From Octopus vulgaris (taxonomy: Eukaryota), in NCBI GenBank assembly GCA_951406725.2, contig OX597822.1:47120001-47184000 (forward strand): DNA of 64,000 nt, given 5' to 3'. The notes beneath the pieces were generated by a model, which worked only from the letters and a program-made list of their open reading frames with translations, was not told where the DNA came from and made no database searches. The position numbers were made by a program, and so were the translations under genes. The stretch's first letter is position 1. Each line of letters opens with the position of its first letter. Below are positions 16,345 to 63,241 of this stretch, in pieces.

Positions 16345-16396
16345 ATGAGTGTATATGCCATGTTTCAGGGTTCATTACCCTTTCATCAGCACTCAT
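16345..16396 (-). ncRNA. Type I hammerhead ribozyme motif, near intact
   Basis: Minus strand: stem I ATGAGTG/CACTCAT, core CTGATGA+A, stem II AGGGT/ACCCT, GAAA, stem III CATGGCATA (one C-A mismatch), UA cleavage site; stem I extends with GTGGGT/ACCCAC. Confidence 0.7.
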
Positions 16397-29074: not shown

Positions 29075-29420
29075 CCCACTGATATTTATAGTGCTTTAAT
29101 ACTACACACTCGTAAGAACTCTTATTTCACGACAAATGCTGTAGTAAACGGTCTGTCAGCAGTGTATATACATTAAATATGATTCATAGATGGCTATTTT
29201 AATCTGATACTGTCTCACTTGCATATGCCAGATTTTTAATCAGCCGGCCGGTTTTTCACATCAATGAATGAGTGATTCATTTTTTTCTTTATGGGAGGCA
29301 ACAAACTCTTATCCAAACATGTAGCTGGCTACGAATATGCACCATTGAAAAGGCTCCAAAAGGCTGAAATGCATCTGGTGCTCTCGCTGTCGGGACAATT
29401 TTCTGTCTTTTTCTGTCCAT

Positions 29421-32218: not shown

Positions 32219-32437
32219 TTGTGTCTGGGGAGAGTAATTTTCTTTTTGTGCCTTATAATGTAACACAATCAACAGTAAAATTTCTACTTATTTTTATTTT
32301 TATTTTCCTATTGAAAAGGTTGCAAGATGCAACGAAAATTTTAGGAAAATAAAAATAAGAAATAAGTGGAAATTTTACCGGTGAGAGTGTTACATTATAA
32401 AACACAAAAAGAAAATGACTCTCCCCAGACACAACAA
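32219..32437 (+). ncRNA. Rod-like hairpin element capped by a hammerhead-like motif with a U3-A8 core
   Basis: ~90-bp imperfect stem (TTGTGTCTGGGGAGAGT...ACTCTCCCCAGACACAA) closing TTTTCCTA-TTGAAAA-G-GTTGC(AAGAT)GCAAC-GAAA-ATTT-TAGGAAAA (32303-32349). Confidence 0.6.
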
Positions 32438-33960: not shown

Positions 33961-35988
33961 CTGCTTGCTTAGCCAGCGGGGTGGCGTCATTTGAAGGCTA
34001 AATCAATGCGAAGCGCATTGTGACCAGCGATGTGTAGCAACATCTGATAGCCTGGTCTGTCACGTGATCACGTGATATATATATATATATATATATATTC
34101 ATATATACGACGGGCTCCTTTCAGTTGCCGTCTACCAAATCCACTCACAAGGCTTTGGTCAGCCCGAGGCTATAGTAGAAGACACTTGCCCAAGGTGCCA
34201 AGCAGTGGGACTGAACCCGGAACCATGTAGCTCGTAAGCAAGCTACTTACCACACAGCCACAATATCAATAGGCATTTAAGGTTTCTACCATACACACCA
34301 CAATAACTTTCTACCAGTTGTATTAGATGAAAAATTTTCCCTTTGTTTCTCTCTTCTGTCACGAATGCTTTAATTCCTCGACGAGCTCACATTGTTTTGC
34401 ATTCCTCTTGCTTCTCTATCTGCGTCACCTAATTCTTTTTTACCCGTTCCTTACCATACTATAGATATTCCAGTCTCTCCGGACTTTGTGCCAGTTGTCT
34501 AACTTCTCCAAACCTTTTATTCATGGTGTACTGCGTGGTTTTCCAACTTTTTTTTTACAGAATTGGCTTCGTTTTTCTTTTCCTTTTTTTTTACTTCATA
34601 TATCAGTGTTGATTTCTAATTAGATTTTCTCCAATTTTTCTATTATTTTTCTGTTATTCCTCTTCTCTCCCTGAACTGGCATCCTTTCTCTCCTTTTTGC
34701 TTCGCTTGTTCATTTTTTTGTGTTTTCTTTTTCTTCCCTCGGTTTATGCGCTTTACATTCCGACACGTGTACATATCACTATTGCATCCATCTCTCCCCT
34801 CTGCGTACTTCACTAATTTTCTTCCTTCACATGTTTGTACTAGTGTTGAATTGTAATTATTCTTTCTCCAATTTTCTCTTCTTCTTTCACTTCTTTTCTC
34901 ACCCTCAACTCCTTCCTTTCTCCTTTCACTTCGCTTTTCCATTCCTTCCTTCCATGTACTTGCATCTCATACCCATACCCTTGCGCACACTTCCATCACA
35001 CATTCTACGATTCTCTTGCTTTCCCTTTTACCTCATACTCGTTCCCGCTCCTGTTTCTTCACTCTCACGTTTTCCTCACACACAATATGATTACTAGAGT
35101 TATGACTCTTACACAACCTAATAATCCTATACTTTAATTCCACGAATAATTTTATAAAAATCAGGAAACTAACATTTATTTTGCTTTATTTGAACAAAAC
35201 GTCACCCCCAACTTAAGAAATTGATCACCAATTTTGACCCAAAACGTGCAAAATTCTAGCGGTGTTGGGGTTCACAACGCCTGCTCAAGTTTTCACCAAA
35301 CGTGATGTGCTGACTCAATGCAATACAGAAACAGTACATCTGAAATTTCAGCTTTCTAGTTGAAGTAGTTTCAGAGTTAGAGGCTTTTGAAACTATAATC
35401 ACTAGATGGCACTAGATCCACACTTCAGTATTTCTGCTGCCTAAATCCTTGTAAACGCAAGAGAGATGCATAATAAAAGTGTACTTATACATTTTTAAGA
35501 TTACTGAATTGAAATTGCCGTATGCAAAGGTTCAAAACTAGGTTATTTTAAGACAGAGGCTACTACAAGCATTCGATAATATAGAAAATTTAAAGCAATA
35601 CATATTTTCAACTTTATAGGTCTAATTCCAATTTTAAATAACTGTACAAGAAAAAGGTTGCTGAATGTTAGCAAATTTTTAAACATAACAAAGAGTTAAT
35701 GCTTTGTCAGATAAAATAAATCGAAGCTGAAGTTTCTCCTTCTTTTTACAAACATCATAAAGATCTTGAAGGCACTTGACTTCCCGTTCTGCACTCTGAT
35801 TTGAGCTGAGAATTTCCAGTTTTAATGATTCTCAACACCAAAAGTTTTTTTTTACAGAGTTCAATGCTGTTTTATGAACTTGCAGGCTACCACATAACTT
35901 CTGATAATCATGTGCATTGAACATTTGCTCAGTAAACCAAAAATCTGTTCAGCTATAAGAAATGAATCGACAAATATTGAAAAGCAAA

Positions 35989-36293
35989 ACTCTTGAACTC
36001 TCTCTCCAAAGTTCTTTTCAACTTTCCCTCGCGATACTTGTCGGCTATCGGACTCGTCCCCGTATTTAGCCTTGGATGGAGCTTACCACCCGCTTTGGGC
36101 TGCGTTCCCAAGCAACCCGACTCTCGGGCCGATGAACACCGCCGATCGCCGCCGGCTCCGAATGGGCCTGGCACCCGCTCTGGGCAGCCCCGATCGAGGG
36201 GACTCGAACCTAGCCGGGCGAAACGATCGACCGTGTACGACCCTTGCGCCACAGCTCTCGACGACCGGCGCGGCCGACGAGATTCGGCGTTGT
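35989..36293 (-). pseudogene. 28S rRNA fragment (D1 region), dispersed copy
   Basis: GC-rich island; minus strand reads CCCAAAGCGGGTGGTAAGCTCCATCCAAGGCTAAATAC...GAGGGAAAGTTGAAAAGAACTTTGGAGAGAGAGTTCAAGAGT, the conserved LSU segment. Confidence 0.93.
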
Positions 36294-36864
36294 ACTCATC
36301 TAAAATAACTGTTATTTCTTTCACAACAGTATTGGCTTTTTCCGTTTGGTAATTGGAGTGCTTCTAACTTAACTTCTCATTGTTCATTCTTTAAAACTAG
36401 CACTTGGTATTCTTGGTCATCAATACATTTACCATCAAAATGCAATTATCAGTTTTCTAAATGTAATGTTTACTTCATTTTTTAAAAAAATGTTAGCAGC
36501 TTCTTTGATAGTCAACCTGTAAATACCAGTTTCGGAAGGAGTCTTGACATTGATTCCATCTTGAGATAATTGTCGACAAACTGTTGCTGCTTTTGGGGTT
36601 GGTAACTTGGAAGATATTTCTAACTCGGTTGCAGTTAGTAATATGAAATTGTTCATTGACTTTTTGATACAGGAAATTGTTTAATTCCCAAAAAATCAAA
36701 AAGTCATAACTCATTACACATAGATACACATATACGCACACACAATACTTCATACCCTCACAACCCTACGATATAGAGAAAGGCAAGTCAGTTCAGGGTC
36801 ATCGCCTTTCGGACCAATTACTCCACGAGACTCAATGGAACTACTCAAAGCCGATTTCTATGAA

Positions 36865-53560: not shown

Positions 53561-53710
53561 TATGTAGTATGTTTTTATTTTTTACGGAGATGTACTCGCA
53601 TAGCAAGTGATTTGATCTGAGATCGTGTGCTGGACGAAAACAATTGCAGCGTGTAAGCCATTTAAGAAACACACAAAAGCCGTTCGATTCACTTCAACAT
53701 TTGAGTTTAA

Positions 53711-53760
53711 TTTGCCAGAATATTTTCGTCGCTAAAATCCGCGACCTGTTCACTGACAAA
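53711..53760 (-). ncRNA. Hammerhead motif with G3-C8 core, UUC site
   Basis: TTTGTCA-GTGAACA-G-GTCGC/GCGAC-GAAA-ATAT-TC-TGGCAAA. Confidence 0.7.
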
Positions 53761-53782
53761 AATCCGAGATGCAGCACGGATT

Positions 53783-53832
53783 TTTGTCAGTGAACAGGTC
53801 GCGGATTTTAGCGACGAAAATATTTTGACAAA
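53783..53832 (+). ncRNA. Hammerhead motif with G3-C8 core
   Basis: Stem I TTTGTCA/TGACAAA, core GTGAACA+G, stem II GTCGC/GCGAC, GAAA, palindromic AATATT, UUU site. Confidence 0.7.
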
Positions 53833-62958: not shown

Positions 62959-62963
<5 letters not shown>

Positions 62964-63229
62964 TGCAGCGTGGAAGGTGTTTGTAAGCTATTTAAGAAAC
63001 ACACAAAAGCCGTTCGATTCACTTCAACAGCACGGATTTTTGTCAGTGAACAGGTCGCGGATTTTAGCGACGAAAATATTTTGACAAATTAAACTTAAAT
63101 GTTGAAGTGAATCGAACGGCTTTTGTGTGTTTCTTAAATGGCTTACAAACACCTTCCACGCTGCAATTGTTTTCGTTTCAGCACATGATCTCAGATCAAA
63201 TTACTTGCTATGCGAGTACATCTCCGTAA
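62959..63229 (+). mobile_element. G3-C8 HHR element in (TA)n, with a truncated inverted copy at its 5' side; HHR motif at 63039-63088
   Basis: HHR identical to 53783-53832; 62959-63029 is the reverse complement of ~63100-63170. Confidence 0.85.
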
Positions 63230-63241
63230 TATATATATATA

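What the first reader, a model, noticed from the sequence alone, without database searches (positions are those of the whole stretch)
53711..53832. Hammerhead family with an inverted catalytic pair, G3-C8 (core GUGAACA)
Seen: perfect stem I (TTTGTCA/TGACAAA), perfect stem II (GTCGC/GCGAC), GAAA and palindromic stem III, but the core reads GTGAACA rather than CTGANGA. The same core occurs in three copies (53711-, 53783+, 63039+). Established: C3 and G8 form a Watson-Crick tertiary pair in the active HHR, and compensatory swaps retain some activity. Inference: a double change exactly at positions 3 and 8, fixed in a replicating family, suggests selection for function, and standard CUGANGA searches would miss it.
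Basis: partly seen in the sequence, partly recalled or inferred. Interest (0 to 1): 0.88.

Follow-up and report, generated by a model that had tools for sequence, protein, structure and literature searches.

The report
Jumping-gene ribozyme with flipped core pair
A family of Penelope-type jumping genes in this animal genome carries a small self-cutting-type RNA (hammerhead) whose key internal base pair is flipped relative to related families, a natural version of a change I found in print only as a lab mutant; whether it still cuts is untested.

Summary
The motif is real. It is a minimal type I hammerhead in the terminal repeat (pLTR) of a Penelope-like retroelement (RT plus C-terminal GIY-YIG). 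The three window copies are two insertions, and 53711(-)/53783(+) are the arms of one head-to-head inversion, so they are not a tandem dimer. G3-C8 is the family state: 2250 pattern hits, 98 of 100 listed, and 15 of 15 stop-free RT-EN copies. A sister family (about 53% protein identity) has C3-G8 with compensatory stem changes, and a third hammerhead-like family (2475 hits; window 32311) has U3-A8. Three different Watson-Crick pairs fixed at 3-8 in one genome argue for selection on the pair. Against strong activity: the cleavage base is U17, a G3-U17 trap is predicted, and copies show no 5' ends at the cut site (1 of 90; the control family is equally blank). Most short copies begin upstream, at an apparent capped start. 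Natural U3-A8 and the engineered G3-C8 rescue are published; I found no natural G3-C8 in nine searches, but four key papers were unavailable. The scan noted G3:C8 motifs beside Penelope-type elements in two other genomes. Verdict: new variant of a known kind; cleavage untested.

The parts
53783..53832 (+). Minimal type I hammerhead, G3 (53790) - C8 (53795), extra G at 9.1, U17 (53825); predicted cut 53825/53826
   Evidence: identical to the 63039 copy
53711..53760 (-). Same hammerhead on the minus strand, G3 (53753) - C8 (53748); private changes C17 (53718) and a U-G wobble in stem I
53582..53766 (-). Main pLTR copy of insertion 1, ending in the 3' tail that is the start of the element's ORF
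   Evidence: BLAST to the 63-kb copy, 90%; tail continues into the ORF in L261
53767..53917 (+). Inverted arm of insertion 1, from the inferred transcript start (AGATG) to about 55 nt short of the tail end
63039..63088 (+). Third hammerhead copy, G3 (63046) - C8 (63051), U17 (63081)
63030..63230 (+). Main pLTR copy of insertion 2, in a (TA)n tract; ORF start codon at 63138-63140
62959..63029 (-). Short inverted arm of insertion 2 (lacks the hammerhead)
   Evidence: 71 nt, 99% complementary to 63100-63170

Best explanation
The motif is the minimal type I hammerhead in the pLTR of an endonuclease-bearing Penelope-like retroelement. The window holds two short pLTR-only insertions with the inverted arms typical of these elements (shown). 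In this family the core pair C3-G8 has become G3-C8 by two transversions while every other conserved core base and all helices were kept; related families keep C3-G8 and another has U3-A8 (shown by sequence). Inferred: selection keeps a Watson-Crick 3-8 pair, hence a catalytically competent core. Inferred: the ribozyme is slow, needing two copies (pairing through the AAUAUU palindrome, as between the two pLTRs of a full-length transcript) or the element's protein, and cuts after U17. Inferred: most reverse-transcribed templates are capped and uncut, so cleavage is a minor or late step rather than the source of the 5' end.
For: Element: long copies carry an RT (YSRYVDD) + CX3CxxC linker + GIY-YIG/CCHH frame about 1.1 kb upstream of the motif; L261 is pLTR-ORF-pLTR with two same-strand motifs 4261 nt apart. 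Family state: 98 of 100 listed hits of 2250; G3 60 of 61, C8 60 of 62, U17 69 of 69 among covering copies of 90 chosen by the tail only; 15 of 15 stop-free RT-EN copies identical over the motif; no other letter at 5% or more at 63046, 63051 or 63081 in 4 of 4 runs from four organism labels. Between families: the sister family found by protein homology has C3-G8 and compensatory changes in stems I, II and III; canonical-core relatives give 1730 hits against 6 control; on 10 hand-picked representatives the 3-8 pair is Watson-Crick in 10 of 10, stem II 100% paired, covariation score above 500 of 500 shuffles; a U3-A8 family has 2475 hits, 95 of 100 listed. Literature: C3G/G8C partly restores a PLE hammerhead, which is protein-assisted (PMC11167929); G3-C8 works better without C17 (PMC3884650, 'data not shown'), and this family has U17.
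Against: No cleavage was measured. G3 is predicted to pair with U17 (probability 0.67) and extend stem I. The 10-nt palindrome AAAAUAUUUU could over-pair in a dimer (-3.8 against -0.2 kcal/mol for the 6-mer) and bury A13, A14 and U17. Only 1 of 90 copies starts at the cut site, though the C3-G8 sister control is similar (0 of 40 exactly, 2 within 4 nt). The 10 rows were hand-picked, related, and partly selected by a canonical-core pattern; G3-C8 there is one event counted twice. The young sister subfamily transposes with A9C, so core drift is tolerated. In vitro, PLE insertion did not need cleavage.
Confidence: 0.65

Rival explanations
1. The fold is kept for another job (protein binding, promoter or 5' UTR structure) but no longer cuts; G3-C8 is a founder accident carried by a successful master element.
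For: No cut-site footprint in copies; 5' ends cluster about 55 nt upstream of the cut site with an extra G (21 of 33); predicted G3-U17 trap; sister family tolerates A9C; cleavage dispensable in vitro for another PLE.
Against: Against the older sister state, exactly the two paired positions of 11 conserved core positions changed, and to a complementary pair (roughly 1 in 165 under uniform drift, my arithmetic); a third family fixed U3-A8. The 3-8 pair belongs to the active conformation.
Confidence: 0.27
2. A MITE or fold-back DNA element whose terminal inverted repeats happen to contain a hammerhead-like string.
For: The 53.7-kb locus is a near-perfect 120-nt inverted repeat.
Against: Arms are unequal and variable, only one carries the tail, and many copies have no inverted arm; the unit is the terminal repeat of an RT-GIY-YIG element.
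Confidence: 0.03
3. A non-LTR retrozyme: tandem 170-400-nt repeats that make circular RNAs.
For: Unit about 200 nt with a type I hammerhead; retrozymes are reported to derive from pLTRs (bioRxiv 10.64898/2026.07.22.740005).
Against: Copies are dispersed or inverted; among 100 listed hits only one close same-strand pair (894 nt apart); the tandem-repeat rows shown for the window list no such array (12 of 162 rows not shown).
Confidence: 0.03

Closest known systems
Minimal type I hammerheads of metazoan Penelope-like elements (Cervera and de la Pena 2014, PMC4209133; parts 1-3 of 4 read)
   Same: In pLTRs; extra base between 9 and 10.1; G10.1-C11.1; palindromic 15.2-16.2 and loop 3; mostly solo copies, some as close opposite-strand pairs.
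   Different: That paper reports U3-A8 as the core covariant; here the pair is G3-C8 (purine at 3), with U17 and a 7-bp helix I.
Natural U3-A8 hammerheads (Perreault et al. 2011, PMC3088659; section 8 read)
   Same: Natural covariation of the 3-8 pair.
   Different: U3-A8 needs two transitions and keeps pyrimidine-purine order; G3-C8 needs two transversions and inverts it. G3-C8 is not named in the section read.
C3G/G8C double mutant of the PAc (Poseidon) PLE hammerhead (Frangieh et al. 2024, PMC11167929; part 1 of 4 and passages)
   Same: Same pair in a PLE hammerhead, partly active; tail equals the start of the ORF; uncut RNA is the main template.
   Different: Engineered there, wild-type and family-wide here; different PLE lineage.
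C-terminal-endonuclease PLEs with a CX2-5CxxC linker, Nematis/Neptune (Craig et al. 2021, PMC8557442; passages and supplement part 54)
   Same: RT then GIY-YIG with CCHH, short Nematis-like linker, inverted truncated copies, tail, (TA)n targets.
   Different: The RT3-RT4 spacing here is much longer than in the Nematis and Neptune rows shown; no tree was built, so the clade is unassigned.

Membership tests
Minimal type I hammerhead of PLEs | Helix I closes the junction; helix II present with G10.1-C11.1 | tested here: met
Minimal type I hammerhead of PLEs | Conserved U4 G5 A6 A9 G12 A13 A14 A15.1 U16.1 | tested here: met
Minimal type I hammerhead of PLEs | Watson-Crick pair between positions 3 and 8 (C3-G8 or U3-A8 in published natural cases) | tested here: met
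   Pair is Watson-Crick but inverted (G3-C8); the literal CUGANGA consensus is not matched
Minimal type I hammerhead of PLEs | Extra nucleotide between 9 and 10.1 | tested here: met
   G in 61 of 62; feature
Minimal type I hammerhead of PLEs | Very short palindromic helix III | tested here: met
   AAUAUU
Minimal type I hammerhead of PLEs | N17 is not G (NUH rule) | tested here: met
   U17 in 69 of 69; 34 non-U copies for one 24-nt pattern genome-wide
Minimal type I hammerhead of PLEs | Located in the pLTR of a PLE | tested here: met
   L261
Minimal type I hammerhead of PLEs | Self-cleavage (dimer or protein-assisted) | not testable with these tools
   Only contigs were available among the runs; genomic footprint uninformative
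Canonical (tertiary-stabilised) hammerhead | Loop 1 - loop 2 tertiary contacts | not tested
   Loop II differs between subfamilies, which argues against a fixed contact
EN+ Penelope-like element | Single ORF with RT and C-terminal GIY-YIG | tested here: met
   Motifs read in translations; homologues labelled RT or GIY-YIG domain proteins; Pfam gave 0 families for 4 of 4 fragments
EN+ Penelope-like element | Partial tandems, inverted truncated copies, tail, microsatellite targets | tested here: met
Nematis clade | Reduced CX2-5CxxC linker and RT phylogeny | tested here: inconclusive
   Linker resembles the Nematis rows; RT3-RT4 spacing does not; no tree built
Non-LTR retrozyme | Head-to-tail arrays of non-coding units | tested here: not met
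MITE | Fixed, symmetric terminal inverted repeats, no RT link | tested here: not met

The most novel reading that the evidence does not exclude
This is a functional natural G3-C8 hammerhead: a recently active retroelement lineage crossed a two-step catalytic valley from C3-G8, made possible by a prior C17-to-U17 change that weakens the G3-C17 trap. With the C3-G8 and U3-A8 families in the same genome it forms a natural compensatory series showing that PLE hammerheads are selected for catalysis, probably as slow, dimer- or protein-gated cutters.
Probability: 0.4. Interest if true: 0.65.

Novelty: new variant of a known kind. Interest (0 to 1): 0.48.

Why it matters
What PLE hammerheads do is open: they cut poorly, one was dispensable for insertion in vitro, and it has been suggested they merely parasitise PLEs. 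Three different Watson-Crick pairs fixed at the catalytic 3-8 position in large families of one genome are comparative evidence that the active-site geometry is under selection, and they give matched natural constructs for a direct test. Practically, hammerhead descriptors that require CUGANGA or UUGANAA would miss thousands of copies here, so elements scored as lacking a hammerhead may need a rescan.

Tried and rejected
Rfam: no hammerhead hit for this motif or canonical-core relatives. Pfam: 0 families for 4 of 4 ORF fragments. Metagenome scan for relatives: 1 weak locus, not used, so no hammerheads from other animals could be compared. A third protein query (P0068) listed only loci that, by coordinates and frame lengths, appeared to be the same two families; these loci were not typed one by one. 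Viral pattern scan: 120 stretches, 80 checked, only one repeat locus passed loose stem filters and it had no credible helix III; rejected. Cut-site footprint: none in this family (1 of 90) or the C3-G8 sister (0 of 40), so uninformative. Splice-acceptor reading of CTAAC...TTTCTYAG|ATG: possible (YAG kept in both subfamilies), but the extra G at copy ends fits a capped start better; unresolved. C17 as family consensus: rejected, it is private to rare copies. Depth profile: not interpretable (contigs, inverted arm in the reference). Papers not held: Lunse et al. 2017, Hammann et al. 2012 (21), Martick and Scott 2006 (56), Arkhipova et al. 2017 (101). One of the Cervera 2014 supplement files was not searchable and figures are not held; a natural G3-C8 could be shown in any of these.

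Full report
Observation. The three motifs are present as described: 53783-53832(+), 53760-53711(-) and 63039-63088(+). In hammerhead numbering (recalled, consistent with the papers read) the string is: helix I 5' strand TTTGTCA; G3 U4 G5 A6 A7 C8 A9; an extra G; helix II GTCGC-GGATTTTA-GCGAC; G12 A13 A14; palindrome A15.1-ATAT-U16.1; N17; helix I 3' strand. N17 is U in two copies and C in the minus-strand copy, which also has a wobble in helix I. A scan of both window strands allowing any bases at 3 and 8 gave 6 hits: these three, one C3-G8 motif at 16389(-) and two U3-A8 motifs at 29345 and 32311. The 53711 and 53783 copies are the arms of one inverted repeat; a transcript through it is predicted to be one long hairpin (-217.5 kcal/mol), so those two cannot serve as a tandem dimer.

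Host element. The genome is 2.8 Gb in 227 contigs. The roughly 200-nt unit is a dispersed repeat (3196 exact hits for a 24-nt tail pattern) that usually ends in (TA)n and often has an inverted truncated arm. Longer copies extend upstream through a microsatellite-rich UTR into a frame with RT motifs (TKGGAIG, YSRYVDD), a CX3CxxC linker and a GIY-YIG endonuclease with CCHH. L261 is a full pLTR-ORF-pLTR unit, and the tail of the unit is the first part of the ORF, as described for PAc. Pfam did not recognise 4 of 4 fragments, so the call rests on motifs, architecture and 150 homologues, a few labelled RT- or GIY-YIG-domain proteins. The linker looks Nematis-like, but I built no tree. One homologue, P0006, is labelled Octopus vulgaris by its source and matches G000 copies at 91-100%, which points to an octopus genome.

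G3-C8 is the family state. With positions 3 and 8 free, 98 of the 100 listed hits (of 2250) are G3-C8. In 90 copies chosen only by their tail, G3 is 60 of 61, C8 60 of 62 and U17 69 of 69 among copies that cover those columns. All 15 family copies with stop-free RT-EN matches (open frames 524-1025 aa) carry the identical motif, so the family was recently expanding with it. Older subfamilies differ in loop II but keep the core. Four runs from four organism labels show no alternative letter at 5% or more at positions 3, 8 or 17. Non-G3 copies (166) are ordinary decay: of 100 listed, 10 are C3, all with C8, and none is C3-G8 (counted by eye). Constancy among copies is inheritance, not evidence of selection.

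Between-family evidence. A sister family was found by protein homology, not by the RNA motif (about 53% identity; frames up to 1312 aa; N-termini also align). Its pLTR holds the homologous motif with C3-G8 and compensatory changes in helices I, II and III; older members have A9 and C17, younger ones C9 and U17. A pattern for a canonical core with the same helix II opening gives 1730 hits against 6 control; 20 stretches were fetched, and they include a C3-G8/U17 copy (L407) whose helix I and II openings match this family. So G3-C8 is most simply derived. On 10 hand-picked representatives the 3-8 pair holds in 10 of 10 and helix II in 100% of cells; the covariation score exceeds all 500 shuffles, though pairs with double changes do not (46 of 500) and the rows are related. 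Against the older sister state, exactly positions 3 and 8 of the 11 conserved core positions differ, and they are complementary: about 1/55 x 1/3 under uniform drift (my arithmetic, post hoc). A separate family with the same architecture has U3-A8: 2475 hits, 95 of 100 listed, one copy at window 32311; I did not link it to an ORF.

Evidence against strong activity. Folding pairs G3 with U17 at probability 0.67, and at 0.985 if N17 were C, echoing the remark that G3-C8 is poorer in a C17 context. U17 may therefore be permissive, but it also occurs in C3-G8 relatives, so it is not shown to be compensatory. U17 is recalled as the weakest NUH base. The longer palindrome could mis-pair dimers. Copies do not begin at the cut site (1 of 90); the sister control is alike (0 of 40). 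Instead 26 of 90 begin within -2 to +3 of the AG|ATG junction about 55 nt upstream of the cut site, and 21 of 33 copies that end at AGATG have a G before it, where 9 of 9 continuing copies have C or T (some of these Gs may be microhomology at inversion joints, and two rows share a flank). I read this as reverse transcription to a capped 5' end of an uncut RNA (inference), matching the finding that unprocessed RNA is the main PAc template.

Mechanism, graded. Shown: hammerhead layout, pLTR location, family-wide G3-C8, alternative pairs in other families. Inferred: selection for a Watson-Crick 3-8 pair (about 0.8); slow cleavage after U17 as a dimer or with protein help (about 0.6-0.65); capped, uncut templates for most short copies (about 0.6).

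Comparison with print. Cervera and de la Pena 2014 (parts 1-3 of 4 read) define the PLE minimal hammerhead and report U3-A8; Perreault 2011 (passages and section 8) reports natural U3-A8. G3-C8 appears as an engineered partial rescue in Frangieh 2024 (part 1 and passages), in a review passage (PMC8495972) and in PMC3884650 (passages). Passages of PMC6765202, PMC8557442, PMC13725137, PMC6155905 and PMC7229834, part 1 of a 2026 preprint, two supplement searches and nine full-text searches showed no natural G3-C8. Four relevant papers were not held, above all Lunse 2017, a large survey of PLE hammerhead variants (recalled), so absence from print is not established. Two unchecked scan notes describe G3:C8 motifs beside Penelope-type elements in other genomes; they suggest recurrence but are not evidence.

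Verdict. A real, well-supported new variant of a known kind: a PLE minimal hammerhead with a natural G3-C8 pair, in a genome that also fixed C3-G8 and U3-A8. Catalysis is untested. Interest 0.48.

Noticed in passing
window 32308-32344 (+): Hammerhead-like motif with U3-A8, extra G, AATT palindrome and U17; a family of 2475 exact-pattern hits, 95 of 100 listed U3-A8, some as close inverted pairs. Host ORF not identified.
   Followed up: partly
window 16397-16344 (-): Canonical-core (C3-G8) type I hammerhead-like motif with an extra A; folds at z -3.25.
   Followed up: partly
window 29339-29381 (+): Weak U3-A8 hammerhead-like hit with a 4-bp helix II; may be chance.
   Followed up: no
window 62990-63230, runs X9 and X16: Runs guessed to be RNA show A>G and T>C at about 5-14% at several sites (63136, 63144) that are about 0.1% in X6 and X8: an A-to-I editing pattern on both strands, as expected for inverted-repeat dsRNA; individuals differ, so not proven.
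   Followed up: no
L077-L106, L266-L268: Very young sister PLE family with intact frames up to 1312 aa, an Asn-rich insert, and a hammerhead carrying A9C; older members have A9 and C17.
   Followed up: partly
window 53766-53771; L031-L060: Sequence upstream of the hammerhead resembles a branch point and 3' splice site and coincides with the 5'-end hotspot of short copies, often preceded by an extra G.
   Followed up: partly
window 35732-36376 (-): Degenerate fragment of eukaryotic large-subunit rRNA.
   Followed up: no
L069 2-2065: A different PLE-like RT and GIY-YIG pair of frames lies just upstream of a copy of this family.
   Followed up: no
L265 3-1370 (-): Long C2H2 zinc-finger array frame near a copy of the element.
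   Followed up: no
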